Assembly: GCA_963705315.1 (NCBI GenBank)
Contig: OY970068.1
Span: forward strand, 70,324 to 134,323
DNA length: 64,000 nt
Direction of reading: 5' to 3'
Origin: an uncultured Actinomycetes bacterium
GTDB lineage: Bacteria > Actinomycetota > Thermoleophilia > Solirubrobacterales > Solirubrobacteraceae
In this document: positions 15,236 to 25,600 of the stretch, one piece after another
Layout: each line of letters begins with the position of its first letter
Numbering within the stretch: position 1 is the stretch's first letter
Notes under the pieces: generated by a model
Seen by the model: only the letters and a program-made list of their open reading frames with translations
What the model was told of the DNA's origin: nothing
Database searches by the model: none
Program-made: the position numbers and the translations under genes

Positions 15236-15575
15236 GGGCTTCGAGGATAGATGGCGGTCCGGGCGGAGCAGGAGAGCGAGCGCGCGACCGCGACCGCGAG
15301 GTCGCGCGCCGTGCCGGGCGTCGGCACGGCGTCGTGGCGTGACGGCAACTGCTCGCGATCGGCTCAGCCCGCGCGCCGTCGACGGGTGACTCAGCAAGGG
15401 CCGACCTCGGCTGGCACGACCGACCGGTGATCTCAGAGCTCGACGATGTCGAGCTGCTCGTCGCGGGCCATTGCGACGAGCATCGCGTCCAGCGTGGCGA
15501 TCGAGTCACCCGGGTCGGTGCATGCAAGCAATGCACAGTTCACCAATGACACCGGGCGACGCGTGCGGTGATAAT

Positions 15576-15614
15576 GGGGTGCCGTTAAAAAACGTCGCAC
15601 CAGGTGACAAGTAG
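15576..15614 (+). repeat. left terminal inverted repeat (IRL) of the Tn3-family element
   Basis: It starts with GGGG, as in Tn3-family IRs, and matches IRR at 34/39 positions. It is preceded by ATAAT. Confidence 0.85.
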
Positions 15615-15646
15615 CCGGATCGGACGCGCTGTGTGTGGAGCGCGGT

Positions 15647-17300
15647 TCAGACCGTCTCGTCGTCGCTCTCCGCCGGCGAGGCCTGGCTGAGGGCGAGGCG
15701 CTTGGTCATGTTGAGCGTGATCTCGCCGTAGGGTCGGACGTGCGCCCAGAACAGCGCGGTGAGGCCGCGGTGGTCTTCGGCGGTGAGCACGCCCTGCCAT
15801 TCGGGCTCGGCGAGGATGTCCTGGAGCATCAGCGTGTTCACGTAGACGAGCGCGGCTTGGAGGATGTGCAGGGCGAGCATCCCGAGTTGTTGCTGGTCGC
15901 GCCGGTTGGTTGCGAACTCGCCGCTCTTGCCGAAGAAGATGACGCCGTTGACGCGGTTCCAGGACTCGAAGCGCGTCGTTGAGCGCGGCGAGCTCGGTGC
16001 GCATCTCCTCCCGCAGCCCGGCGGTGAAGACGGCAGGGTCCAGGGGCTTGCGCAGCTTGTCGTAGTGCTCGGCTCGGTGGACCTCGAAGTCGGCCGGGAG
16101 GTCCTCGTCGGGGTTTCGCCATTCGTGCGCGCCGACGACCCAGATCTCCTTGCAGCGCAGCCGCTCGCGCAACGCTTGAATGACGCGCGCCTCGTAGACG
16201 CCACGCACCACGCGGGCCCGGCCACGCGAGTCGGTCTTGGTCAACAGCTCGGTCCAGTCGGCGTTGACGGCGCCGTCCAGGACGACGTGCTCGCCGAGCG
16301 GGTAGTACGTGCCGCCGTGGTGGGCGTAGCGGACGATCAGTCCGAGGGCGTCGATGACGGGCTGATGCGTGGTGTTGTTGGATCTGAACTCGAGCACGCC
16401 GAGCAGCCGGATCAGGCCGCGCCGGTAGTGGTTGGTGTAGGAGGCCTTGAAGACCTTGCGCTTCTGACGCTGATACTCCGAGCCGGTCGCGCGGTACTCC
16501 TTGACCAAGTCGGTCAGCGTCGCCTCGCCGCCGACGACCGGGTAGATCACCTCCCGGACGCTGTCGTCCGGGGTCTTGAGGGAGGCTTCGGCGATCTTGC
16601 GCAGCATCGCGTCCTTGCCGCGAACGCGGCGGAAGTCCTTGACGAACTCCTCGACGACCTTCTGCTCGGCATGTGCGTTGATCCTGTGGATCGTCGAGAT
16701 GAGCAGCTGCGCGAGCGTGTCGGTGACCTCCCGCTCACGCAGGACCAGCAGCGCGCATAACAAGGCGAGCCTGGTCGGCCGGGGATGCTCGCGCAGATGG
16801 CTGGGCGACTCGACCATCGCTCGGGCCCGCCAGCCCGCGACGATCTTCGGCGCGACGCCGGCGAACAGGTCGCCGGGGAGCCCGATCGCTCGGATCGCCT
16901 CGAGCTTTGAGATCTCGACGAGCATCGTGTCCAGGCTCACGTTGCCCGGTGCCGACTTGATTACGGCCAGCACATCCTCACCGTCATCGTGCTCGTCATC
17001 GCTGTTTGCGATCAGCGCCTGGACGCGCTTGGCCGCAGCCACGCCGACACGGTCGGCGACAAGCGCCAGCAGCGCCTGTTCGGCTTGATAGAGCGCCGAC
17101 CTGACGATCTCGGCGAGCCTGTCGGGGGTGGGCGGCTCGATCAGTTCCGCGCGACAGCGCGCGAGCAACTGCTCGTGAACGCGGTCGTGGCCGCGCTCGA
17201 CGCCGGCGACGTGCTCCGTTAACCACGCCGTCAACGGGTCGGCGTCGGTGACACTGCATTCCCTGAAGCCCGCGTAGGCACGGCTCTCCGTGCGGTGGCG
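15647..17300 (-). pseudogene. tnpA: Tn3-family transposase TnpA remnant (5'-truncated, about 1.4-kb internal deletion with frameshift)
   Basis: ORF 15585..17234 carries the DUF4158-distal and central TnpA regions (EISKLEAIRAIGLPGDLF, HLREHPRPTRLALLCALLV). Homology continues upstream to an in-frame TAG at 17301..17303. The extreme C-terminus (NGVIFFGKSGEFATNRRDQQQLGMLALHILQAALVYVNTLM...RPYGEITLN) is in another frame (ORF 15647..16225). About 530 codons remain of an expected 1000, and the DDE catalytic core is missing. Confidence 0.8.
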
Positions 17301-17361
17301 CTAGCGCCTGGGCGGAAAACCCGGGTCTTGCCGCGCTGACGGGTGTGGAACAGATTGCCGA

Positions 17362-17496
17362 TCAGACGCTCTCAGTGTCTCGAAGCGCTGCGACCTGTCG
17401 GTGGCGGCGGGCCGCTTCGATCGCGTCGATGGGTAGAAAGAGTGGGCAGCCGACGTGGTCCTCGCGGTGCAGCAAGTTGTTGGCGATGACGGTCAC
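17362..17496 (-). CDS. 44-codon ORF translationally coupled (GTGA) to the upstream membrane-protein gene; possibly a gene fragment
   Basis: GTG 17494..17496 overlaps TGA 17493..17495. The product is MTVIANNLLHREDHVGCPLFLPIDAIEAARRHRQVAALRDTESV. I recognise no family. Confidence 0.2.
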   Translation of the reverse strand: MTVIANNLLHREDHVGCPLFLPIDAIEAARRHRQVAALRDTESV

Positions 17497-17906
17497 TTCG
17501 CAGCCGCCTTGGCGTCGGGCGTCGGGCGACGGGCGACGGGCGACGAGGTTCCGTAGAAGAGGAACGCGGCACCGGCGGTCGCGGGCACTGCGAACAGGGC
17601 GATGATGACGGCCGCGTTGAGCGCGTGAGCGAGCAGGCCTGATGCGCGTAGCGGCTGCGGCCAGCGGTGCGCTCGCGCCGCGAGGGCGCCGGGGATCACG
17701 GCAGGCATCGCGACAAGCCCGAGTGCGGCGTCTTGTGCGTCGGGGTCGCGCCAGAGCAGCGCGAGCGCGATGAGCGTGATGCCGAGGAGCGCGCGAGCGA
17801 TAACACCGGCTGGTCCGATCGCGCTGGCGCAGGCGGCGGCGAGCTTGGCGGGGTGGCTCACGGTGTCAAACGCTGCGCTGCTGCCGGCGGGTGGTGGCGC
17901 TGGCAC
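17493..17906 (-). CDS. hypothetical membrane protein, divergent from the ArsR-family regulator
   Basis: 137-aa GTG ORF with 3-4 hydrophobic segments (VIARALLGITLIALALLW, LGLVAMPAVIPGALAA, LNAAVIIALFAVPATAGAAFLFY). It shares the palindromic operator region with the regulator. Confidence 0.4.
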   Translation of the reverse strand: MPAPPPAGSSAAFDTVSHPAKLAAACASAIGPAGVIARALLGITLIALALLWRDPDAQDAALGLVAMPAVIPGALAARAHRWPQPLRASGLLAHALNAAVIIALFAVPATAGAAFLFYGTSSPVARRPTPDAKAAAK

Positions 17907-17910
17907 TGGT

Positions 17911-17932
17911 CATGTCAGGTTATACTGACATG
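17911..17932. promoter_or_regulatory. perfect 8-6-8 palindrome: candidate ArsR-type operator overlapping divergent -10 elements
   Basis: CATGTCAG-GTTATA-CTGACATG. The centre reads TATACT on the + strand, ending about 7 nt before GTG 17934. On the - strand it reads TATAAC, about 10 nt before GTG 17906. This suggests two leaderless or near-leaderless transcripts. Confidence 0.45.
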
Positions 17933-17933
17933 A

Positions 17934-18308
17934 GTGTCTGAGAACGCAACGATCGGCGGGCCGTTCTTGCTGCCGCAGCGCCCGACCGAGCCCGATCTGG
18001 TCGCGAAGTACTTCAAGGTGCTGTCTGATCCCGCGCGGGTTCGTGTGCTCGAGCTGCTGCGCGAGCGCGGCGAGCTGTCGGTCGGGCAGCTGACCGAGGC
18101 GCTGGGGCTGGGGCGTACGAATTTGTCCAATCACCTTGGGTGTCTGCGCTGGTGTGGGTTCGTGCTCACGCGTCGCCAGCACCGCACTATCTACTACCGC
18201 GTCGCCGACGCGCGGGTCAGCGAGCTGCTGGCGCTCGGCCGCGCGCTGCTTGAGGACAACGCCGAGCACGTCGCCGCGTGCCGGCGCGTCGATTCGAAGG
18301 GACGCTGA
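17934..18308 (+). CDS. ArsR/SmtB-family metal-sensing repressor (CmtR-like cysteine pattern)
   Basis: The HTH core is LSDPARVRVLELL...LSVGQLTEALGLGRTNLSNHLGCLRWCGFV. It has a C-x3-C pair in the recognition-helix region and a C-terminal Cys (HVAACRR), as in CmtR-type Cd/Pb/Hg sensors. Confidence 0.75.
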   Translation: MSENATIGGPFLLPQRPTEPDLVAKYFKVLSDPARVRVLELLRERGELSVGQLTEALGLGRTNLSNHLGCLRWCGFVLTRRQHRTIYYRVADARVSELLALGRALLEDNAEHVAACRRVDSKGR

Positions 18309-18571
18309 TGGACGACAAGCCAAAGGGGCTACGGGGCACTCCCAGGACGGGGTTCGCCGCGCTGGGTATCGGGACGTTTGCGGTCGTGTGCTGCGCCGGC
18401 TTGCCGTTGCTCGCCGGGGTGCTGGGCGGTGTTGCGCTGGGCAGCGTGCTTGGTGTCGGTGCGGGTTTGCTGGCCGTGATCGTCGTGATCGCCTTGGTCG
18501 TGGTGCGAGCGCGCCGACAGCGCGCGTGCGCGACAGCGCGCGTCACGCCGCGTCGTGGCGGTCAGGCATGA
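18308..18571 (+). CDS. small two-TM membrane protein with a vicinal Cys pair (MerF-like metal uptake protein)
   Basis: ATG 18308 overlaps the regulator's TGA by 1 nt. The 87-aa product has FAVVCCAGLPLLAGVLGGVALG in TM1, comparable to the LVALCCFTPVLV motif of MerF. A second TM follows, with one more Cys after it. Confidence 0.5.
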   Translation: MDDKPKGLRGTPRTGFAALGIGTFAVVCCAGLPLLAGVLGGVALGSVLGVGAGLLAVIVVIALVVVRARRQRACATARVTPRRGGQA

Positions 18572-19917
18572 GCGCGGCGCGCTACGGCGCGGTCGTGATC
18601 GGCGGCGGCCCGGCCGGAGAGGTCGCCGTCTCACGCCTGAACGCGCAGGGCCTCAGGGTCGCGCTGGTCGAGCGTGAGCTGGTCGGCGGCGAGTGCGCCT
18701 ATTGGGCGTGCATCCCGTCAAAGGTGCTCATGCGCCCGCCCGAGGCGCGCGGGGAAGCCACGCGTGCGGCCGGCGTCGCGACGCCCGCGATCGACTGGCC
18801 GCAGGTCGCGGCGTACCGCGACTACATGATCCGCAACCTCGACGACGCCGCGCAGGTCAAGGCCTACCGCGACGACGGCATCGACGTCTTCAAAGGCGAC
18901 GCCCGGATCGACGGGCCCGGCCACGTCGCCGTCGACGGGCAGGTGCTTGTGACCGAGCGGATCGTCGTCGCAACCGGCAGTGATGCGCGGATCCCGCCGA
19001 TCGACGGTCTCGTGCAGGCGGGCTACTGGACCAACCGTGAGGCAACGACGCTCACCGACATCCCGGACAGCGTCGTGATCCTTGGCGGCGGCCCCTTCGG
19101 CGTCGAGCTCGGCCAGTTCATGCGCCGCTTCGGAACACGCGTGACGATCGTCGATCACGGTGATCGGCTCATCTCGCGTGACGACCCGGTCGTCGGCGAG
19201 CTGATCGCCACAGCCCTGCGCGCCGAAGGCATCGAACTGCGGCTCGGCGCGAAGGCCGTCAGCGTGACGCTCACAGATGGCGTGCGTGTCGTGCTGCTCG
19301 ACGACGGCGAGCAGGTCAGCGGACGCGAGCTGCTGGTCGCGACCGGCCGTGCGCCGCGGGTGCACGACATCGGCCTTGAGAGCATCGCCATCACGCCCGA
19401 TCCAGCGGGCCTACAGGTCGACGAGCGCTGCCGTGCCGCGGAGGGCGTGTGGGCGATCGGCGACGTCACCGGCGTGCTGGCGTTCACGCACGTCGGGATG
19501 TACCAGGGGCGCATCACCGCGGCCGACATCGCCGGTGAAACGGTCCGCGCGGACTACACCGCGATCCCACGCGTCGTCTTCACGGACCCCGAGATCGCCG
19601 CCGTCGGCCTGACCGAACACCAGGCCCGCGAGCAGGGCATCCCGGTCGCGACCTCGCGTGTCGCGCTGGCCGACACGATCGCGCGACCGTGGACCTATCA
19701 GCAGGACCCCGGCGGCGAGCTCGGGCTGATCGGCGACCGTGATCGCCAGGTGCTGATCGGCGCGTGGGCGGTCGCTCCGCTGGCCGGCGAATGGATCCAT
19801 TACGCAGCGCTGGCGATCAAGACCCAGACGCCGCTGTCGGTGCTGCGCGACACCGTCGCGCAGTTCCCCACCTTCACCGAGGCCTACCTCAAAGCAGCTG
19901 AGCGCCTTGACGCCTGA
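18568..19917 (+). CDS. class I pyridine nucleotide-disulfide oxidoreductase: MerA-like paralog lacking the C-terminal Cys pair
   Basis: Internal ATG 18568 in an ATGA overlap with the upstream stop. Motifs are VVIGGGPAGE, the redox-active GGECAYWACIPSK, and an NAD motif ILGGGPFGVELG. It ends ...FTEAYLKAAERLDA with no CC. Confidence 0.75.
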   Translation: MSAARYGAVVIGGGPAGEVAVSRLNAQGLRVALVERELVGGECAYWACIPSKVLMRPPEARGEATRAAGVATPAIDWPQVAAYRDYMIRNLDDAAQVKAYRDDGIDVFKGDARIDGPGHVAVDGQVLVTERIVVATGSDARIPPIDGLVQAGYWTNREATTLTDIPDSVVILGGGPFGVELGQFMRRFGTRVTIVDHGDRLISRDDPVVGELIATALRAEGIELRLGAKAVSVTLTDGVRVVLLDDGEQVSGRELLVATGRAPRVHDIGLESIAITPDPAGLQVDERCRAAEGVWAIGDVTGVLAFTHVGMYQGRITAADIAGETVRADYTAIPRVVFTDPEIAAVGLTEHQAREQGIPVATSRVALADTIARPWTYQQDPGGELGLIGDRDRQVLIGAWAVAPLAGEWIHYAALAIKTQTPLSVLRDTVAQFPTFTEAYLKAAERLDA

Positions 19918-21316
19918 CCGCGACCACGCTGATCACACGTACGACCTGGCGATCGTCGGTTCGGGTGGCGGCGCGTTCGCCGCGGCGATCGCCGCGCGCC
20001 GACGCGACCTGCGTGTCGTCATGATCGAGCACGCCACGGTCGGCGGGACGTGCGTGAACGTCGGCTGCATCCCGTCCAAGGCGCTGCTGGCCGCCGCCGA
20101 AACCCGCCACCGCGCCGGCCACGACCGCTTTGCCGGCATCAGCACGCACGCCGGACCGGTCGACTTCGCGGCGCTGATCGCCGGCAAGGACGAGATCGTC
20201 AACGGCTTGCGCCAGGAGAAGTACCTCGACATCGCCGCCGAGTACGACATCGAGCTCGTCCACGGCCACGCGCGCTTCATCAATGGTCCCGCGCTGGATA
20301 TCGACGGGCGCCGCATCGACGCCGCGCACTACCTGATCGCGACCGGCAGCCAACCGCACATCCCCGACATTCCCGGGCTGGCCGACAGCGGCTACCTGAC
20401 GTCGACCTCGGCGATGGAGCTCGAGCAGTTGCCCGCGTCGATGATCGTCATCGGCGGCGGGTACGTCGCGATGGAGCAAGCCCAGCTGTTCTCCCACCTC
20501 GGCACCCGCGTGACGATGCTCGTGCGCTCAAGATTGGCGCGCGGCGAGGAACCCGAGCTCGCCCAGAGCATCCGCGACGCGTTCACCGAGCAGGGCATCG
20601 AGATCCATGAGGGCATCCAGGCGACCGCCGTGCGCCGCGACGGCGACGGCGACGTCACGCTCACAGCGGGCGACCGCGAGTTTCGAGCCGCGCGAATGCT
20701 GCTCGCCACGGGCCGGACGCCGAGCACATCCGGCCTCGGCCTGCAGGGCATCGGCGTGCAGACAGGGGCTCGTGGCGAGGTCGTCGTCGACGAGCACACG
20801 AGCACCACCAATCCGCGGGTATGGGCGGCCGGCGACGTCACCGGTCATCCGCAGTTCGTGTACGTCGCCGCCAAGCACGGCAGCATGGTCGTCGACAACG
20901 CCTTTGACCGGGCCGGGCGACGAATCGACTACCAGGCATTGCCGCGGATCACCTTCACCACCCCGACACTCGCCTCAGCAGGCCTCACCGAAGCCCAAGC
21001 CATCGATCACGGCCTGCGCTGCGAGTCGCGCGTGCTCGCGCTCGAACACGTCCCACGCGCGATCGTCAGCCGCAACACCAGCGGCATGGTCAAGCTCGTC
21101 GCCGAGCGCGACAGCGGCCGAATTCTCGGGGTGCACCTACTCGCCGACGGCGCAGGCGACGCCATCCTCGCCGGCGTCTACGCGATCCAGGCCGCATTGA
21201 CGGTCGCGCAGCTCGCGTCAAGCTGGAACCCGTACCTGACGATCGGCGAGGCGATCCACCTCACGGCGCAGTCCTTCACCCTCGACCCCAGCAAACTGTC
21301 GTGCTGCGCGGCGTGA
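19907..21316 (+). CDS. merA: mercuric reductase core (no N-terminal HMA/NmerA domain)
   Basis: Motifs are YDLAIVGSGGGAF, the redox-active GGTCVNVGCIPSK, and the C-terminal vicinal cysteines KLSCCAA* that are diagnostic of MerA. The TTG start overlaps the preceding gene by 11 nt. Confidence 0.8.
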   Translation: MTPDRDHADHTYDLAIVGSGGGAFAAAIAARRRDLRVVMIEHATVGGTCVNVGCIPSKALLAAAETRHRAGHDRFAGISTHAGPVDFAALIAGKDEIVNGLRQEKYLDIAAEYDIELVHGHARFINGPALDIDGRRIDAAHYLIATGSQPHIPDIPGLADSGYLTSTSAMELEQLPASMIVIGGGYVAMEQAQLFSHLGTRVTMLVRSRLARGEEPELAQSIRDAFTEQGIEIHEGIQATAVRRDGDGDVTLTAGDREFRAARMLLATGRTPSTSGLGLQGIGVQTGARGEVVVDEHTSTTNPRVWAAGDVTGHPQFVYVAAKHGSMVVDNAFDRAGRRIDYQALPRITFTTPTLASAGLTEAQAIDHGLRCESRVLALEHVPRAIVSRNTSGMVKLVAERDSGRILGVHLLADGAGDAILAGVYAIQAALTVAQLASSWNPYLTIGEAIHLTAQSFTLDPSKLSCCAA

Positions 21317-21496
21317 GCACGCGAAACCGGGTGTCGCACAGACCACGCGCGGTCACGGCGACCGCGACGCGCTCGACGGTCATTGCGTTCACGGTCGTGA
21401 GCTGGGTGCGCGGGCGAGCATTATCGCCATCAGTGCTGGGGCTGCCGGGCCAGATCGAACGCCCGTCGCTGCTATGACCGAGAAAGCAGGAGCAAC

Positions 21497-22153
21497 ATGA
21501 AACGCGAGCAGAGCGCCGAGACACCACGGAGACGGCAGCCGTTGAGCCGGGTGAGCGGCACGGGGGTAGACGAACCGGTCGGTGGGCGATCAGCGCCGCC
21601 GTGCTGGCGGCGCTTGTCACGCTTGTCGTCGTGGCAACACAGCGCGCACCCGCCCGGGGGGTCGCCCCTCCTCAAACAGGACGTTGCGCAGCAGAACTCG
21701 ACGAGCGCAACCGCAGATGACGGGCAGGCGTCCAGCAAGACCGTGCGGAGCTTCTCGCTCGCGGACGTTGATGGCCGCCAGGTCATGCGACCGTCGGGGC
21801 GCAGGCCCGGCGTGCTGGTGTTCACCGCGAGCAATTGCTCGCCGTGCATCGTTCAGGCCCCCGGCCTACTCGCCGAGATGCGCAAGTTCGGCTCACGAGC
21901 GGAGATCCTGACGGTGAGCATTGACCCCGGCGACTCCAGTTCAGCGCTGCGCGATGCGTTCAAGCCCGCGATCGGCAGCGCTCGGAACTATCCGCTGGCC
22001 GTCGACCGAAGCGGTCAGCTGGCGCCGGCCTTCGGCGTGACCGCGACAGGCACCGAGATCGTCTATGACCGCGCGGGCCGCGAGGTGTAGCGCGGCGTAT
22101 CAAGCCCGGTGAGCGAGATTGGCGCGGCGTTGCGCAAGGCTGGCGCCGCGTGA
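21497..22153 (+). pseudogene. TlpA/ResA-like membrane-anchored thioredoxin-fold protein, apparently disrupted (in-frame TAG at 22088; membrane anchor in another frame)
   Basis: AGGAG lies 5 nt upstream of ATG 21497. The thioredoxin motif is VLVFTASNCSPCIVQAP. TAG 22088..22090 is followed in frame by RGVSSPVSEIGAALRKAGAA and TGA 22151..22153, which overlaps the GTG of the ccdA fragment. A signal-anchor (RRTGRWAISAAVLAALVTLVVVATQ) is encoded in the +2 frame between the G5 run at 21562..21566 and the G6 run at 21656..21661. Confidence 0.55.
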
Positions 22154-22245
22154 GCGCGGCGGTGTCGTTTGCCTTCGCGGCGGGACTGCTGGCCACCGTC
22201 AACCCGTGTGGCTTCACGATGCTGCCGTCCTTTCTGACGTTCTAG
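22150..22245 (+). pseudogene. CcdA/DsbD-family cytochrome c biogenesis protein: N-terminal 31-codon fragment
   Basis: VSAAVSFAFAAGLLATVNPCGFTMLPSFLTF* carries the conserved NPC(G/A)F.MLP motif of CcdA TM1. The reading frame ends at TAG 22243..22245 and the similarity stops there. Confidence 0.6.
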
Positions 22246-22352
22246 GGAACGAGGCACCAACCGACAAGTAGGTCGGGATCGGGGGTCTACGGAGAGTTCG
22301 TGCGGACAACCGGGTCAGGCCGTGCGGCGCCCAGCCTGAGTCATGTGGTCGA

Positions 22353-22865
22353 TCAGCGCAGGTACGTGTTGCGTGGTCGCGCGAGCAGCAGCCAGACATT
22401 CAGCAGCGCAAACGCCGCGACGAAGTTCGCGCCGCACACCATGCACGTCTCCACGGTGACACCTTCCGCAAGCAGCGTCCCGAGGTCCTTCAGCAGCGTG
22501 ATTGCGACGCCGACGACGAAGGACAGCACGAGCGTGCGGCGCAGATGCTCACGCGCGAAGCCCCAGGCCGCGACGACGGGTGCCTTGGGCGGAGAAACCG
22601 GGTCGTTGTCGGCTGCGACGATGTTCAGGCGGGGGGACGTGCTGTGGGCGTCGAGGTGCGCGATGACGCGCTCGGCAAGCCCGTCGGGCGCCGCGCTGCT
22701 GATCGAGCGCAACTGCCGTCCGAGTGCGGTCAGCTCTTCGAGCGACCCGCGACACGCCACGCATTCGCGGAGGTGCTCGCGCACGCGACGGGTTTCGTCG
22801 TCTGGCAGCGCGCTATCGCGGTAGTCGCACAGTCGCGTGGACGCGAAGTGATGCTCGGCGCTCAC
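22353..22865 (-). CDS. anti-sigma factor: N-terminal zf-HC2 with a C-terminal two-TM domain
   Basis: The H-x3-C-x2-C motif is HLRECVACRG. The gene overlaps the ECF sigma stop by 4 nt. The C-terminal hydrophobic segments are TLVLSFVVGVAITLL and GANFVAAFALLNVWLLLA. Confidence 0.7.
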   Translation of the reverse strand: MSAEHHFASTRLCDYRDSALPDDETRRVREHLRECVACRGSLEELTALGRQLRSISSAAPDGLAERVIAHLDAHSTSPRLNIVAADNDPVSPPKAPVVAAWGFAREHLRRTLVLSFVVGVAITLLKDLGTLLAEGVTVETCMVCGANFVAAFALLNVWLLLARPRNTYLR

Positions 22866-23491
22866 AGCGAACCCCGCTGCCCCGCATCGTCGGCGAGTGC
22901 TGTGCGAAGCGTCCCGCGCGCGCGATGCAGACGGCTCTTGAACGCCGCCTCGCTCAGGCCGAGAGCCGATGCCGCTTGCGCGGTCGAGAGTCCCTCGACA
23001 TCGCGCAGCACGAGCGCTGCGCGCCGATCGACCGGTAGCGTCGAGATCGCGCGATCGAGCACGCGTCGTAGCTCGCTCTGCTCGGCACGGTCCGCTGGAC
23101 GTATCGAGCGGTCGGGTGACTCGTGCTCGCGGTGATCATCCAGCGGCAGAAGCCTCGCGTCAGCGCGGCGGTGCTGGCGTTCGGCGCGGCGCCTGGCCTC
23201 GTTGACGCCGATCCGGTACAGCCAGGTGAAGAATTGCGCGTCACCGCGAAACGCGGGCAGTCCACGCCACGCGCGCAGGAACGCGTCCTGTGTGACCTCC
23301 TCCGCTTCGTGCGCATCCGCGCACAATCGCACGACAACGGCGTACAGACCGGCGGCATGACGGCGCACGAGTTCGTCAAAGGCCGCCCGGTCGCCCCCTC
23401 GCGCGAGCGCCACGAGCGCGCGATCGTCCTCGATCAAGCGTGGCGCGACCATCCCGCCACGATAACCCGCTGTCGTGCGCTCGGACGCCAT
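22862..23491 (-). CDS. ECF-type RNA polymerase sigma-70 family factor
   Basis: Region 2 is AFDELVRRHAAGLYAVVVRLC...AEEVTQDAFLRAWRGLPAFRG...FFTWLYRIGVNEA. Region 4 is RAALVLRDVEGLSTAQAASALGLSEAAFKSRLHRAR. Confidence 0.85.
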   Translation of the reverse strand: MASERTTAGYRGGMVAPRLIEDDRALVALARGGDRAAFDELVRRHAAGLYAVVVRLCADAHEAEEVTQDAFLRAWRGLPAFRGDAQFFTWLYRIGVNEARRRAERQHRRADARLLPLDDHREHESPDRSIRPADRAEQSELRRVLDRAISTLPVDRRAALVLRDVEGLSTAQAASALGLSEAAFKSRLHRARGTLRTALADDAGQRGSL

Positions 23492-23888
23492 AGACCCTCA
23501 GACCCGGACGCCACCCCAACGATTCGTCGCGCTGCACCGATCGACGGGCGCCTGCGGTCGATGATGTTCCCGCGGAGTGGTCAGCGGTCGGCGAGCAGCG
23601 CGCAGATCACGTTTCGCGAGTCCGACGATGCCGGTCAGCACGGCATATCTGCGCGCGCCGGTGAGCGTGGCGTCGACGACGAGCGTCATGGTGCTGGCGT
23701 CGACGGGGTCTGTCTCGATGTCGAGTCGAGGCGCTGCGCGGCGATCGCGGGGGTCGCGCCAGGACCAGCGCCCCGCATCTCTGCTCTGAGGCTAGACAGA
23801 CCCCTTGCAGGGCAGCCGCGAGCGGAATCTTGAACCGATCTGCTGGTGCAGGGGTCCAACCCCGCGAACGGATCCTCTCTGAAAGGAC

Positions 23889-24401
23889 ATGATGAATCTC
23901 GCTCACGATCTGGACCGGCGCATCGCCTACGGCGTGGTCGGCGGGACCTTCGCAGGGCTGCTGTTCTTGCTGGCGAACATGTGGTACGCCGACGGGCAGG
24001 GCCTTCCTGCGGTCGCCCCGCTGTACGACATCTCAACGATCTTCTACTTCTCCGACAAGCCCGACCCGCAGCCGATCAATGCTGCTGTCGGCCTCGTCAT
24101 GCACCTGACGCTGGCAGCTGCGTTCGGGGCGATGCTCGCCGTGCTCGCTCCGCTGGCCCGCGGCGCAGCGCGCCTCGCCGGGCTCGCCGCCGCGTTCGGC
24201 CTTGTGCTGTACATCGTGAACTTCCAAATTCTCGGACGCCTTGTGTTCGAGTGGTTCCAGGTGGGACCCAATCAAACCTTCGAGGTCTTCGCGCACGTCG
24301 GGTACGGCCTGCTCGTCATTCCGTTCGTCATGCGCTTCGCGGCCGCGAGCAGCCGATCACCCGCCACCGCGCCTAGCGCGGCACGTCCGGCCGCCCGGTG
24401 A
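23889..24401 (+). CDS. hypothetical 4-TM membrane protein
   Basis: 170-aa ATG ORF with four hydrophobic segments. I recognise no family. Confidence 0.5.
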   Translation: MMNLAHDLDRRIAYGVVGGTFAGLLFLLANMWYADGQGLPAVAPLYDISTIFYFSDKPDPQPINAAVGLVMHLTLAAAFGAMLAVLAPLARGAARLAGLAAAFGLVLYIVNFQILGRLVFEWFQVGPNQTFEVFAHVGYGLLVIPFVMRFAAASSRSPATAPSAARPAAR

Positions 24402-24783
24402 CGTAGACCGAGATCACGGCGCACCCGGCGCCGCGATACCGTCGCAAGCCGCGCGACGGCGCGCGGCGCGGCGCGGCGCGGCGCGGACCGCCGTGCCTGC
24501 CGCGATCAGCTCGTCACGGCTCGACGGCGGCCAGTACGTCCGGCGCGGGACTACGAGCGTCACACGTAGGCCACGAGCCTGGGTAGCTGTCCCCACGTGC
24601 AAAGTAGAAGCCGAGCCGTTCGCTGAAGCGCCCATACTCACCGGCCTATACCCCGCCCCGCAACGCTTGCGCCCCGTAGGCTCCCCCGCGCTGACTGTGG
24701 CGCGATCGGGCGGCCGCGGGCCGCCTACTGGCGGCGGGAGCCTCTGCCGAGCAACTCAACGCGGAGCCAGCCGGCCCCCGCCA

Positions 24784-24914
24784 TGTCCGGGGACGATCGT
24801 TCACGGACACCCTTGGAGCAGAAATCGGGCAGCCCGCCATTCCGGGCTCCGCGTTTGTAACGAAACCCGTGTACTCGGCAACGTAACGCGCTCCCCCGTT
24901 CGTCTACACTCCAA
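24784..24914 (+). promoter_or_regulatory. candidate res (resolution) site upstream of tnpR
   Basis: TGTCCG-gggacgATcgttca-CGGACA (24784..24809) is a 26-bp dyad with a central AT, resembling a res subsite I. It lies about 105 bp upstream of tnpR, which leaves room for subsites II and III. Confidence 0.3.
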
Positions 24915-25496
24915 GTGATGCGGATCGGCTACGGGCGGGTATCCACCCGCGATCAGAATCCAGACAGCCAGCGCGACGCCCTCGCCGCCGCCAACTGCGA
25001 TGAGATCTTCGTCGACAACGCCAGCGGCAAGCTCGCCAGCCGTCCAGAACTCGACAAGGCGCTACTCGTCGCCAAGCGCGCCGGCGACAAGCTCGTCATC
25101 ACCAAGCTCGACCGCCTCGGCCGCTCCCTCGAGCACCTCATCGCCCTATCTCGCGACCTCCAGGCGCGTGGGGTAGACCTCGTCGTGCTCGACCAGGGCG
25201 TCGACACCTCAACCGCCGCCGGGCGCATGTTCTTTCAGACCCTCGGCGCGATCGCCGAGTTCGAGCACGCGCTGATGTCCGAACGCACCCGCGACGGCCT
25301 CGACGCCGCCCGCGCGCGCGGACGCACCGGTGGGCAGAAACCCAAGCTCACCGCCCGCCAGGCGAAGATCGCTCAGGACATGTACGACGAGCTCGGCGAC
25401 GACGGACGGCGGGCACACACCGTGCAGCACATCGCCAACGAGTTCGGCGTCACCCGCCCAACGATCTACCGCCACCTCCAACGGCGCATGCGCTGA
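24915..25496 (+). CDS. tnpR: serine recombinase / Tn3-family resolvase
   Basis: MRIGYGRVSTRDQNPDSQ contains the catalytic Ser motif. Other motifs are KLDRLGRS and a C-terminal HTH (IANEFGVTRPTIYRHL). The start is GTG 24915 or ATG 24918. Confidence 0.9.
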   Translation: MMRIGYGRVSTRDQNPDSQRDALAAANCDEIFVDNASGKLASRPELDKALLVAKRAGDKLVITKLDRLGRSLEHLIALSRDLQARGVDLVVLDQGVDTSTAAGRMFFQTLGAIAEFEHALMSERTRDGLDAARARGRTGGQKPKLTARQAKIAQDMYDELGDDGRRAHTVQHIANEFGVTRPTIYRHLQRRMR

Positions 25497-25512
25497 CCGC
25501 GGCCAGCGCGCC

Positions 25513-25551
25513 CTACGTGTCCTCTGGTGCCACGTTTCTTAACGGCACCCC
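25513..25551 (-). repeat. right terminal inverted repeat (IRR) of the Tn3-family element
   Basis: See IRL. It is followed by ATAAT at 25552..25556. Confidence 0.85.
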
Positions 25552-25600
25552 ATAATGGCGCGCCCGCAGCTCCCCCACGCGCCACGCGCGCGCGCCGTCG

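What the first reader, a model, noticed from the sequence alone, without database searches (positions are those of the whole stretch)
17362..21316. Tightly coupled metal module: CmtR-like ArsR, MerF-like CC protein, a MerA paralog without the C-terminal Cys pair, and MerA
Four genes are translationally coupled: TGATG at 18306..18310, ATGA at 18568..18571, and an 11-nt overlap at 19907..19917.
- The last gene is a core MerA. It has GGTCVNVGCIPSK and the C-terminal SCCAA, and it lacks NmerA.
- The preceding gene is a class I disulfide reductase with an unusual redox motif, GGECAYWACIPSK. It has no C-terminal cysteines, so it cannot take Hg(II) the way MerA does.
- The regulator belongs to the ArsR family, not the MerR family. 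Its C-x3-C plus C-terminal Cys pattern matches CmtR.
- The only transporter candidate is an 87-aa two-TM protein with a single vicinal CC in TM1.
- There is no merT, merP or merB.

I could not match the role of the second reductase, and this gene order, to any mer operon I know.
Basis: partly seen in the sequence, partly recalled or inferred. Interest (0 to 1): 0.6.

Follow-up and report, generated by a model that had tools for sequence, protein, structure and literature searches.

The report
Mercury operon with an extra reductase
This is a transposon-borne mercury-resistance operon of the known actinobacterial type, but it also carries a second, uncharacterised flavoprotein reductase from a conserved family that sits beside mercury genes in many Actinomycetota, which makes it a candidate new mercury-resistance gene.

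Summary
On the + strand, four genes overlap end to end:
- an ArsR-type regulator (17934-18308)
- an 87-aa two-helix membrane protein with a Cys-Cys pair (18308-18571)
- a 449-aa class I flavoprotein reductase, here called "FDR2" (18568-19917)
- a core MerA (19907-21316)

A TlpA-like thioredoxin and a deleted ccdA stub follow. A frameshifted membrane gene and a conserved palindrome lie upstream. All of this sits inside a Tn3-family element.

ArsR regulator, small Cys-Cys protein, TlpA, CcdA and core MerA make up the known Streptomyces lividans-type mer layout. FDR2 is the new part.
- **Its own clade.** FDR2 lies outside Lpd, Gor, RclA and mycothione reductase. It groups with MerA only moderately (87/84).
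- **A fixed signature.** GGECAYWACIPSK is nearly invariant. Phe replaces the catalytic His, and there are no C-terminal cysteines.
- **Linked to mer genes.** 45 of 94 FDR2 loci have mer-type genes within 5 kb. In an even sample of 401 genomes of the phylum, 7 of the 9 genomes with both genes have them within 2.5 kb of each other.
- **No name, no paper.** Annotated Rhodococcus, Mycolicibacterium and Pseudarthrobacter plasmids call it only "NAD(P)/FAD-dependent oxidoreductase". I found no paper on it.

Its substrate is unresolved. My leading guess is a reductase for thiol-loving metals, about 0.4. Other first-stage notes of this scan flagged the same gene in other genomes.

The parts
17362..17906 (-). 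Divergent membrane-protein gene. It has no family match and is frameshifted in this window.
   Evidence: The open frame is 17493-17906. The intact L001 homologue (177 aa) aligns in two frames, at 17903-17532 and 17520-17365. The cause is an 8-nt insertion in a GGGCGAC repeat. Homologues sit next to arsR in L001, L050, L064 and L124. Pfam and NCBIfam give no match.
17911..17932 (.). Perfect 8-6-8 palindrome (core TGTCAG-N6-CTGACA) between the two divergent starts. It is the likely ArsR operator.
   Evidence: Read directly from the sequence. The core is found, abutting the arsR start, in L001, L002, L004 and L023. It has one exact copy in the window.
17934..18308 (+). ArsR/SmtB-family metal-sensing repressor of the mer-operon type. 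It has the CmtR-like C-x3-C in the recognition helix and a Cys near the C-terminus.
   Evidence: NF033788 scores 84.7 bits (cut-off 55); CmtR scores 62 bits (cut-off 150). The C-x3-C aligns with CmtR in 2jsc. CLxWCG and the C-terminal Cys are conserved in 35 mer-linked homologues.
18308..18571 (+). 87-aa protein with two transmembrane helices, a Cys-Cys pair in helix 1 and an Arg-rich stretch followed by Cys in the tail. It is the candidate Hg(II) importer, with a MerF-like layout.
   Evidence: 92 homologues were found, all unnamed. The alignment shows an invariant Cys-Cys, and a tail Cys in 17 of 20. Pfam and NCBIfam give no family; MerE matches only at E = 0.0085. A protein-atlas search gives a MerF lead at 0.88.
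18568..19917 (+). FDR2: a 449-aa class I flavoprotein reductase with GGECAYWACIPSK. Phe replaces the catalytic His, and there is no C-terminal Cys pair.
   Evidence: Pyr_redox_2 and Pyr_redox_dim domains are present. No NCBIfam model passes its cut-off; the best is the MerA model at 314 bits against 454. It forms a distinct clade. It is linked to mer genes.
19907..21316 (+). Core mercuric reductase MerA, without NmerA.
   Evidence: TIGR02053 scores 552.7 bits (cut-off 454). It has GGTCVNVGCIPSK, Tyr in PYLT and a C-terminal SCCAA.
21497..22090 (+). TlpA/AhpC-like thioredoxin-fold protein. It is the counterpart of the extracytoplasmic thioredoxin of actinobacterial mer operons.
   Evidence: AhpC-TSA matches at 7.9e-10. 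It stands in the same position in L001.
22075..22260 (+). Stub of ccdA, about 62 codons. The rest was lost in a 1.58-kb deletion relative to L001.
   Evidence: tblastn with the 340-aa L001 frame holding CcdA matches only its residues 3-64. In blastn, L001 8729-10307 has no counterpart in the window.

Best explanation
This is a mercury-resistance operon of the actinobacterial (Streptomyces lividans) type, carried on a Tn3-family transposon.

**How the known parts work (inferred from family knowledge).**
- The ArsR-type repressor binds the palindrome between the divergent genes. It is released when Hg(II) binds its Cys cluster.
- The 87-aa Cys-Cys membrane protein brings Hg(II) across the membrane, as MerF does. 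The TlpA-like thioredoxin assisted it, and so did CcdA before its deletion.
- Core MerA reduces Hg(II) to Hg(0) with NADPH.

**FDR2.** The gene coupled between importer and MerA is neither a decayed MerA copy nor a stray housekeeping Lpd or mycothione reductase. It belongs to a conserved, unnamed flavoprotein family that has been recruited into mer clusters again and again across Actinomycetota.

**Most likely chemistry of FDR2, probability about 0.4.**
- It keeps the redox Cys pair but lacks the acid-base His that known class I disulfide reductases (GR, Lpd, Mtr) retain. MerA and GbsMerA lack that His too.
- It carries an invariant Glu directly before the first Cys.
- So I judge it most likely to be a reductase acting on a thiol-loving metal substrate, probably a Hg(II) species. 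It would take the metal without a C-terminal Cys relay and complement MerA.

**What is shown and what is inferred.** Shown: gene identities, family separation, conservation, linkage. Inferred: transport route, operator function and the FDR2 substrate. I put about 0.9 on the operon identity and on FDR2 being a true mer-associated accessory gene.
For: **Operon identity**
- MerA scores above its curated cut-off, and the regulator is ArsR/SmtB.
- The regulator's C-x3-C aligns with CmtR.
- The palindrome is conserved upstream of arsR.
- L001, a 92-97% identical element, shows the intact order arsR, Cys-Cys gene, FDR2, merA, tlpA, ccdA.
- The same gene set is annotated on Rhodococcus ruber, Mycolicibacterium chubuense and Pseudarthrobacter plasmids.
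- ArsR-regulated mer operons in Actinobacteria are documented (PMC3466566).

**FDR2 is a separate family**
- In the careful tree, FDR2 with its close relatives has support 100/99 and MerA 100/100.
- Both lie outside Lpd, Gor, RclA and mycothione reductase.

**FDR2 is conserved**
- 90 invariant positions in 25 sequences that are 54-92% identical to the window's FDR2. These include E42, C43, Y45, W46, C48, N156, R157, Y312, Q313, W400, E408, W409, H411, Q432 and F433.

**FDR2 is linked to mer genes**
- 45 of 94 loci have mer-type genes within 5 kb.
- In an even sample of 401 genomes, 17 have FDR2, 40 have MerA, 9 have both and 7 have them within 2.5 kb. About 1.7 genomes with both would be expected under independence.
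- Linked copies are spread over the family tree, with at least 15 changes of state.

**FDR2 acts on a metal**
- Phe stands where every outgroup has His. MerA and the 'par3' paralogue have Tyr there.
- Modules of arsR, the Cys-Cys gene and FDR2, sometimes with merB, occur in genomes where no MerA was found: G377, G388, G402 and G404.
- GbsMerA is an experimentally characterised Hg(II) reductase without C-terminal Cys-Cys or NmerA (PMC10587081).
- Thermophile MerA works with Phe at this position paired with an active-site Glu (PMC4500099).
Against: - About half of FDR2 genes have no mer neighbour. One clade of 22 sits in housekeeping-like chromosomal synteny (acyltransferase, BrkB, ferritin-like, DJ-1, MsrA), yet keeps the same invariant residues. 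That points to a general function not tied to Hg.
- Where FDR2 is mer-linked it usually stands beside MerA. That argues for a complementary role, not a redundant one.
- FDR2 lacks the features known to matter for Hg handling. It has no C-terminal Cys pair. It has Phe where GbsMerA Y437F is inactive. It has Thr, not Glu, at the position that pairs with Phe in thermophile MerA. The Tyr264-equivalent is only 60-90% conserved.
- The invariant His411 could be a relocated acid-base residue.
- The grouping with MerA is only moderately supported (87/84), with just 8 outgroup sequences.
- No experiment on any family member was found.
Confidence: 0.55

Rival explanations
1. FDR2 is a thiol-maintenance enzyme. 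It would use NAD(P)H to re-reduce a low-molecular-weight disulfide, or the Cys pairs of the mer relay proteins (the Cys-Cys protein tail, CcdA/TlpA, thioredoxin). That would keep Hg(II) ligands and transporters functional while MerA does all the metal reduction.
For: - The fold and redox Cys pair are those of disulfide reductases.
- Chromosomal copies without mer genes lie near MsrA, DJ-1 and ferritin-like genes.
- FDR2 directly follows ccdA in Rhodococcus ruber, Streptomyces barkulensis and L003.
- FDR2 usually co-occurs with MerA rather than replacing it.
- The invariant His411 and Glu408 could stand in for the missing dyad.
- From my own knowledge, not checked here: the Thermus thermophilus mer operon carries a thiol-synthesis gene. 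Only the reference to that work (Norambuena et al. 2018) was seen.
Against: - The acid-base His kept by GR, Lpd and Mtr is Phe here in 99% of family members.
- The host lacks MshC and mycothione reductase. Yet the gene moves between hosts with different thiols, so a thiol-specific enzyme is unlikely.
- Only 11 of 45 mer-linked loci have TlpA and CcdA.
- Class I enzymes that reduce proteins normally need a C-terminal redox relay, which FDR2 lacks.
Confidence: 0.3
2. FDR2 is an ordinary housekeeping dihydrolipoamide dehydrogenase or mycothione reductase that lies next to merA by chance or as transposon hitch-hiking.
For: Source annotations call homologues 'dihydrolipoamide dehydrogenase'. The Lpd model scores 300 bits.
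Against: - FDR2 scores below every curated cut-off.
- It falls outside the Lpd and mycothione reductase clades with strong support.
- It lacks the catalytic His.
- The genome has its own Lpd (L087), and the two same-genus genomes lack FDR2.
- The linkage to merA recurs across several orders.
Confidence: 0.03
3. FDR2 is a decaying or inactive duplicate of MerA that lost its C-terminal cysteines.
For: Its best HMM match is the MerA model. It sits next to merA.
Against: - It is only about 32% identical to the adjacent MerA.
- It forms a deep, separate clade.
- It has 90 invariant positions, including a family-specific active-site motif and intact FAD and NAD folds.
- It is full-length in nearly all loci.
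Confidence: 0.02
4. The arsR, Cys-Cys protein and FDR2 core is a module for another soft metal or metalloid (Cd, Pb, Cu, Au, Te or Se), and merA was merely added to it.
For: - The regulator has the CmtR-type Cd/Pb site.
- The three-gene core occurs without MerA.
- RclA is a Cu(II) reductase of the same fold without C-terminal Cys (E. coli annotation; PMC10587081).
Against: - The regulator is not a CmtR orthologue. The same ArsR subfamily is the one found beside merA and merB throughout.
- merB is also a frequent neighbour.
- No efflux pump or other metal-specific gene recurs.
Confidence: 0.1

Closest known systems
Streptomyces lividans 1326-type actinobacterial mer operon (ArsR-family MerR, small membrane ORF, thioredoxin-like ORF, CcdA-like transporter, merA, merB)
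   Same: - It has an ArsR-type repressor instead of MerR, and a core MerA without NmerA.
- It has a small Cys-Cys membrane protein, a TlpA-like thioredoxin and CcdA. CcdA is intact in L001 and a stub here.
- The same set is annotated on Rhodococcus and Mycolicibacterium plasmids (PMC3466566; PMC12195606).
   Different: - All genes run in one direction and overlap, rather than forming two divergent units.
- There is no merB.
- An extra flavoprotein reductase sits between the importer and merA.
- The published S. lividans layout is from my own recall and was not re-read here.
MerF (two-helix mercuric ion transporter, Pfam PF11431)
   Same: - About 80-90 aa with two transmembrane helices.
- A vicinal Cys-Cys followed by Pro in helix 1.
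- A basic stretch followed by Cys in the cytoplasmic tail. Mycobacterial and Streptomyces homologues have Cys-Cys-Pro-Pro there.
- A protein-atlas search gives a MerF lead at 0.88.
   Different: - Neither Pfam nor NCBIfam returned a MerF match.
- The window's copy has a single tail Cys.
- The MerF motifs are from my own recall.
MerA (mercuric reductase, TIGR02053)
   Same: - FDR2 shares the fold, the redox C-x4-C pair and the loss of the catalytic His.
- Its best HMM match is the MerA model.
- It groups with MerA at 87/84 support.
   Different: - It scores 314 bits, below the 454 cut-off.
- It has no C-terminal Cys pair.
- It has Phe instead of Tyr at the His position.
- Its motif is ECAYWAC instead of TCVNVGC.
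GbsMerA of Gelidibacter salicanalis, and E. coli RclA (class I flavoproteins without C-terminal Cys that act on metal ions)
   Same: - No NmerA and no C-terminal Cys-Cys.
- GbsMerA lies in an ArsR-regulated mer operon, reduces Hg(II) and has an acidic residue flanking the redox pair (PMC10587081).
   Different: - They are different families. FDR2 matches GbsMerA (8k40) at only 151 bits, against 211 for Tn501 MerA.
- GbsMerA needs Tyr437, where FDR2 has Phe.
- RclA keeps the His-Glu dyad.
CmtR (Mycobacterium tuberculosis Rv1994c, Cd/Pb sensor)
   Same: Both are ArsR/SmtB proteins. The two recognition-helix cysteines align exactly, and there is a further Cys near the C-terminus.
   Different: The window's regulator scores 62 bits against an equivalog cut-off of 150. 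Its genomic context is mer, not a Cd/Pb efflux ATPase.

Membership tests
MerA (TIGR02053), applied to gene 19907-21316 | HMM score above the curated cut-off | tested here: met
   552.7 bits against 454.45.
MerA (TIGR02053), applied to gene 19907-21316 | Redox C-x4-C, C-terminal vicinal Cys pair, and Tyr at the 264- and 605-equivalent positions | tested here: met
   It has GGTCVNVGCIPSK, Tyr in GYLTST, Tyr in PYLT and a terminal SCCAA. The criteria are those listed in PMC8261052.
MerA (TIGR02053), applied to FDR2 18568-19917 | HMM score above the curated cut-off | tested here: not met
   314.4 bits against 454.45.
MerA (TIGR02053), applied to FDR2 18568-19917 | C-terminal vicinal Cys pair, and Tyr at the 605-equivalent position | tested here: not met
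   FDR2 ends in AERLDA. It has Phe433 where MerA has Tyr. This holds across the family.
Dihydrolipoamide dehydrogenase (TIGR01350), applied to FDR2 | HMM score above the cut-off, and the His-Glu catalytic dyad | tested here: not met
   299.6 bits against 408.8. QFPTFTE aligns with HPTLSE of Thermus Lpd, so His is replaced by Phe. FDR2 lies outside the Lpd clade.
Mycothione reductase (TIGR03452 / NF005884), applied to FDR2 | HMM score above the cut-off, and placement in the Mtr clade | tested here: not met
   185.7 bits against 635.65, and 210.7 against 501. FDR2 is separate from Mtr in both trees. No MshC or Mtr was found in the host genome.
MerF (PF11431), applied to the 87-aa protein | Match to the family model | tested here: not met
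   No MerF match in Pfam or NCBIfam at E <= 0.01. The only related hit is MerE at E = 0.0085.
MerF (PF11431), applied to the 87-aa protein | Two transmembrane helices, a vicinal Cys pair in helix 1 and a second Cys pair in the C-terminal tail | tested here: inconclusive
   The two hydrophobic segments and the invariant Cys-Cys are met. The tail has one Cys here, but Cys-Cys in the Mycolicibacterium and Streptomyces homologues.
CmtR (NF047906), applied to the regulator | Equivalog score above the cut-off | tested here: not met
   62.2 bits against 150.
CmtR (NF047906), applied to the regulator | Metal ligands Cys57 and Cys61 in the recognition helix, plus a C-terminal Cys | tested here: met
   The C-x3-C aligns with CmtR. 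A Cys near the C-terminus is conserved in the subfamily. Whether it corresponds to CmtR Cys102 was not shown by alignment.
ArsR/SmtB metalloregulators (NF033788) | HMM score above the cut-off | tested here: met
   84.7 bits against 55. HTH_5 matches at 1.8e-12.
Actinobacterial (S. lividans-type) mer operon | ArsR-type regulator, thioredoxin-like gene, CcdA-like gene and merA in one cluster | tested here: met
   All are present. ccdA is reduced to a stub here but is intact in the 92-97% identical L001.

The most novel reading that the evidence does not exclude
FDR2 is a second, unrecognised class of mercuric reductase. It would take Hg(II) without a C-terminal Cys relay, using the Glu-flanked ECAYWAC centre, possibly fed by the tail Cys of the MerF-like protein or by MerB. 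It could then serve as the only Hg(II) reductase in genomes that carry arsR, the Cys-Cys gene, FDR2 and sometimes merB, but no MerA. Surveys that demand the C-terminal Cys pair would have missed it.
Probability: 0.25. Interest if true: 0.8.

Novelty: new variant of a known kind. Interest (0 to 1): 0.55.

Why it matters
**A missing gene in mer surveys.** Mer operons are among the best-studied resistance systems, yet the reviews I read list no second reductase among their accessory genes (PMC3466566; PMC8261052). MerA surveys filter out homologues that lack the C-terminal Cys pair. A conserved, mobile, mer-linked flavoprotein with its own active-site signature is therefore a concrete new candidate mer gene in Actinomycetota. 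It is present on plasmids of culturable, non-pathogenic strains: Rhodococcus ruber C1, Mycolicibacterium chubuense NBB4 and Pseudarthrobacter chlorophenolicus A6. That makes it directly testable.

**What a result would mean.**
- If it reduces Hg(II), it is a third solution to Hg delivery, after the C-terminal relay of MerA and the Tyr/Asp site of GbsMerA.
- If it maintains thiols, it shows how Gram-positive mer systems keep their Cys relays reduced.

**What it does not explain.** Half of merB-carrying genomes are reported to lack MerA. In my sample, only 1 of 51 MerB-only genomes had FDR2 beside merB.

Tried and rejected
- **Structure search.** The AlphaFold2 model has pLDDT 88, but only 51-71 over residues 41-80 around the redox helix. 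Foldseek ranks Thermus Lpd and Tn501 MerA equally, so the fold does not discriminate.
- **Cofactor preference.** The window's copy has an Asp typical of NADH enzymes. The position is not conserved in the family, so I dropped the idea of an NADH-linked partner for an NADPH-linked MerA.
- **Chromosomal neighbours of non-mer FDR2 genes.** They are heterogeneous and carry no operon-level clue.
- **MerB-only genomes.** I tested whether FDR2 fills the gap left by a missing MerA. Only G377 fits, so this fails as a general explanation.
- **Literature.** Searches for the motif CAYWAC and for a second reductase in actinobacterial mer operons found nothing on this family. Absence from the held library is not proof that no paper exists.
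- **Small protein.** Pfam and NCBIfam scans found no family for it or for its Rhodococcus, Mycolicibacterium and Pseudarthrobacter counterparts.
- **A MerF reference.** The small gene before merA in the Brucella plasmid hit only MerT weakly, so I made no profile comparison with true MerF.
- **Mycothione-reductase substitute.** Rejected. No MshC or Mtr was found in the host (EgtD is present), and FDR2 also occurs in mycothiol-producing genera.
- **Motif invariance is partly biased.** ECAYWACI was one of the search patterns used. Loci found independently by whole-genome search show the same motif with rare variants, GGECGYWACIPSK and GGECTNWACIPTK.

Full report
**What is there**

Window 17362-22260 holds the following, in order.
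- A divergent minus-strand membrane gene at 17362-17906. It is frameshifted by an 8-nt insertion in a GGGCGAC repeat relative to its intact homologue in L001.
- A perfect 8-6-8 palindrome at 17911-17932.
- On the + strand: an ArsR/SmtB regulator (17934-18308), an 87-aa membrane protein (18308-18571), a 449-aa class I flavoprotein reductase that I call FDR2 (18568-19917), and MerA (19907-21316).
- A TlpA/AhpC-like thioredoxin-fold gene at 21497-22090.
- A ccdA stub of about 62 codons at 22075-22260.

The last one rests on a TTG start, the only start codon upstream of MerA's dinucleotide-binding motif.

The cluster lies next to a damaged Tn3-family transposase at 15585-17234 (NF033527). Other first-stage notes place it inside a Tn3-type element at about 15571-25556. 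I did not re-examine the element's ends.

**Identity of the known parts**

*MerA.*
- It passes the curated model (552.7 bits, cut-off 454).
- It has the redox pair, both tyrosines and the terminal Cys pair.
- It has no NmerA domain.

*Regulator.*
- It passes the ArsR/SmtB model, but not the CmtR equivalog (62 bits against 150).
- Its C-x3-C aligns exactly with CmtR Cys57/Cys61 in 2jsc.
- In 35 homologues from related loci, CLxWCG and a Cys near the C-terminus are conserved.

*Palindrome.* Its core TGTCAG-N6-CTGACA abuts the arsR start in L001, L002, L004 and L023 as well. This fits an operator.

*87-aa protein.*
- No Pfam or NCBIfam family matches it.
- It has 92 unnamed homologues.
- An alignment of 20 copies found after arsR shows two hydrophobic helices and an invariant Cys-Cys in the first. 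An Arg-rich stretch follows, then a Cys in 17 of 20 copies. In Mycolicibacterium and Streptomyces that Cys is a Cys-Cys-Pro-Pro motif.
- This is the MerF layout as I recall it. A protein-atlas search gives a MerF cluster as a lead at 0.88.

*Absent genes.* The Pfam models found no MerB or MerT in the complete 3.78-Mb genome.

**The operon type is known; the element is mobile**

- L001, a metagenome-assembled Actinomycetota genome, is 92-97% identical in DNA across the region. It carries an intact CcdA after TlpA. The window lacks 1.58 kb there. The ancestral operon was therefore arsR, Cys-Cys gene, FDR2, merA, tlpA, ccdA.
- Annotated plasmids show the same building blocks:
  - Rhodococcus ruber C1 has merB, MerR and merA, then divergently ArsR, a hypothetical protein, TlpA, CcdA and an NAD(P)/FAD-dependent oxidoreductase.
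  - Mycolicibacterium chubuense NBB4 has CcdA, thioredoxin, a hypothetical protein and ArsR, then divergently merA, merB and the oxidoreductase.
  - Pseudarthrobacter chlorophenolicus A6 has merA, merB, a hypothetical protein and the oxidoreductase.
- ArsR-regulated mer operons in Actinobacteria, including Streptomyces lividans, are documented (PMC3466566). TrxA- and CcdA-type 'mercury transporters' are listed for Actinomycetes (PMC12195606).
- The two same-genus genomes in the sample have neither FDR2 nor MerA. This fits acquisition on the transposon.

**FDR2 is a family of its own**

*Model scores.* No curated model accepts it. MerA gives 314 bits (cut-off 454), Lpd 300 (409), and mycothione reductase 186-211 (501-636).

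*Missing His.* In the alignment with Thermus Lpd, its QFPTFTE lies on HPTLSE. The acid-base His is therefore Phe.

*Conservation.* Across 25 members that are 54-92% identical to it, 90 positions are invariant. They include E42, C43, Y45, W46, C48, N156, R157, H308, Y312, Q313, W400, E408, W409, H411, Q432 and F433. Every outgroup has His at position 433. MerA and a third paralogue ('par3') have Tyr there.

*Trees.*
- A 143-sequence quick tree and a 45-sequence careful tree (LG+C20 PMSF) both recover MerA (100/100) and FDR2 with its 42-47% identical relatives (100/99) as separate clades.
- Both clades lie outside E. coli Lpd, Gor and RclA, the host's own Lpd, and four mycothione reductase-type sequences.
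- FDR2 plus par3 plus MerA form a 'His-less' group at 87/84, which is suggestive only.
- The outgroup sampling is thin: 8 sequences, no archaeal MerA and no GbsMerA.

*Host genome.* It has just four class I members: Lpd, par3, and the two on the transposon.

**FDR2 is linked to mer genes**

- *Loci.* Among 94 loci with an FDR2 orthologue (at least 50% identity), 45 have at least one of arsR, the Cys-Cys protein, MerA, MerB, TlpA or CcdA within 5 kb. Of these, 26 have MerA. A few loci are duplicates of one genome (L010 = L122, L047 = L123) or near-identical plasmids.
- *Even sample.* In 401 genomes of the phylum, 17 have a full-length FDR2 (at least 52% identity) and 40 have MerA above cut-off. 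Nine have both, where about 1.7 would be expected under independence. In 7 of these the two genes are at most 2.5 kb apart: G000, G045, G011, G026, G056, G141 and G180. Five of the seven belong to one family (f19), so they are not independent.
- *Named genera.* The named loci add Mycolicibacterium, Rhodococcus, Streptomyces, Nocardiopsis, Pseudarthrobacter, Kocuria and Cellulosimicrobium.
- *On the tree.* Linked copies are scattered over the family tree, with at least 15 changes of state. One clade of 22 is purely chromosomal.
- *Gene order.* It varies: arsR, Cys-Cys gene, FDR2, merA; or arsR, Cys-Cys gene, merA, FDR2; or merA, merB, FDR2; or ccdA, FDR2.

**What FDR2 does: argument and limits**

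*For a metal substrate.*
- The class I enzymes I know that keep the Cys pair but lack the His are MerA, GbsMerA and 2-KPCC. The 2-KPCC case is from my own recall.
- The disulfide reductases I know of in the class (GR, Lpd, Mtr, high-Mr TrxR) keep the His.
- GbsMerA reduces Hg(II) without NmerA or a C-terminal Cys-Cys, and has an acidic residue beside the redox pair (PMC10587081).
- Thermophile MerA works with Phe at the His position, paired with an active-site Glu (PMC4500099). FDR2 has Phe433 and an invariant Glu42 directly before Cys43.
- Modules without MerA exist:
  - G377 has arsR, the Cys-Cys gene, a membrane gene, merB and FDR2. No MerA was found in this 97%-complete genome.
  - G388 has the Cys-Cys gene and FDR2.
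  - G402 has arsR, the Cys-Cys gene and FDR2.
  - G404 has arsR, the Cys-Cys gene, merB and FDR2.

*Against a metal substrate.*
- About half of the family has no mer context, yet keeps the same invariant residues.
- FDR2 mostly accompanies MerA rather than replacing it.
- FDR2 has Thr, not Glu, at the position that pairs with Phe in thermophile MerA.
- The GbsMerA mutant Y437F is inactive.
- His411 could act as a relocated base.

*My estimates.* Thiol-loving-metal reductase about 0.4; thiol or protein-disulfide maintenance about 0.3; other about 0.3.

*A test that failed.* FDR2 does not explain the reported excess of MerB-only genomes. Of 51 MerB-positive, MerA-negative genomes in the sample, only G377 has FDR2 beside merB.

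**Comparison, novelty and earlier notes**

- The operon is a member of the known actinobacterial mer design. The tightly coupled extra reductase is a variant that I could not find described. MerA surveys explicitly require the C-terminal Cys pair.
- The scan has met this before. First-stage notes in other genomes describe a CAYWAC/QFPTY reductase beside merA (e1-1988465, e1-3303730, e1-3865955). A followed-up Chloroflexota operon had two reductases (e1-1448473). I did not test those loci.

**Unpublished genomes**

These claims rest partly on genomes flagged as unpublished.
- G018 (L107): adjacency of an FDR2 relative, arsR and MerA. It is also one of the nine genomes with both genes.
- G239: counted among FDR2 genomes without MerA.
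- G391 (L112): a tree row only.
- G403 (L045): a TRASH-like gene after arsR.
- G404 (L064): arsR, Cys-Cys gene, merB and FDR2 with no MerA found.
- G120, G174 and G226: appear only in tallies.

No conclusion depends on these genomes alone.

Noticed in passing
Not in the window: G045:C5:380047-380403, G223:C6:139349-139705, G291:C3:702100-702447 and about 30 others: About 30 of some 85 MerB-domain matches across the phylum carry exactly one in-frame TGA inside the domain, in many different families. This could be a selenocysteine-containing or otherwise recoded MerB-like subfamily.
   Followed up: no
window 17362-17906 (-): The divergent membrane gene is split into two frames by an 8-nt insertion in a GGGCGAC repeat at about 17527-17545, relative to L001. 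The intact protein has a C-terminal soluble part with two cysteines and belongs to no known family. It recurs beside arsR in L001, L050, L064 and L124.
   Followed up: partly
window 22075-22260 against L001:8554-10307: A 1.58-kb deletion removed most of ccdA and the DNA after it. The neighbouring TlpA-like gene is still open.
   Followed up: yes
L045:~760-1130 and L048:~1265-1660: In two Solirubrobacterales/Thermoleophilaceae loci, the gene after arsR is not the Cys-Cys membrane protein. It is a Cys-rich soluble protein (CPTCGC ... CCQ.C ... CPTC) that resembles TRASH/YHS metal-binding domains, as in Sulfolobus mer operons. FDR2 follows it.
   Followed up: no
own genome G000:C1:2733519-2734862 (L085), outside the window: A third paralogue ('par3') also lacks the catalytic His. 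It has GGDCLFGGCVPSK, YPTFAEG with Tyr at that position, and a basic C-terminal extension. It scores 378 bits on the MerA model. It forms a separate clade with L050:50-1468 and is sister to the FDR2 family.
   Followed up: partly
own genome: No MshC or mycothione reductase was found above cut-off, but EgtD (ergothioneine synthesis) is present. The host probably does not use mycothiol.
   Followed up: partly
L009:742-2412: Here the MerA open frame loses similarity after about 307 residues and ends without the Cys pair, so merA is probably broken. The downstream merB and FDR2 are intact.
   Followed up: no
L007, L011, L078, L083, L118-L120 (between merA or merB and FDR2); L010, L013, L078, L122 (after FDR2): Two further recurrent neighbours of mer-linked FDR2 are a ~160-aa DUF1440-like membrane protein directly upstream and a HAD-family hydrolase directly downstream.
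   Followed up: no
L002:2071-3558 (-) and L023:2082-3509 (-): A long-branched, 41%-identical relative of FDR2 lies 1.5 kb upstream of the mer operon on the opposite strand. My motif search did not find the C-x4-C there.
   Followed up: no
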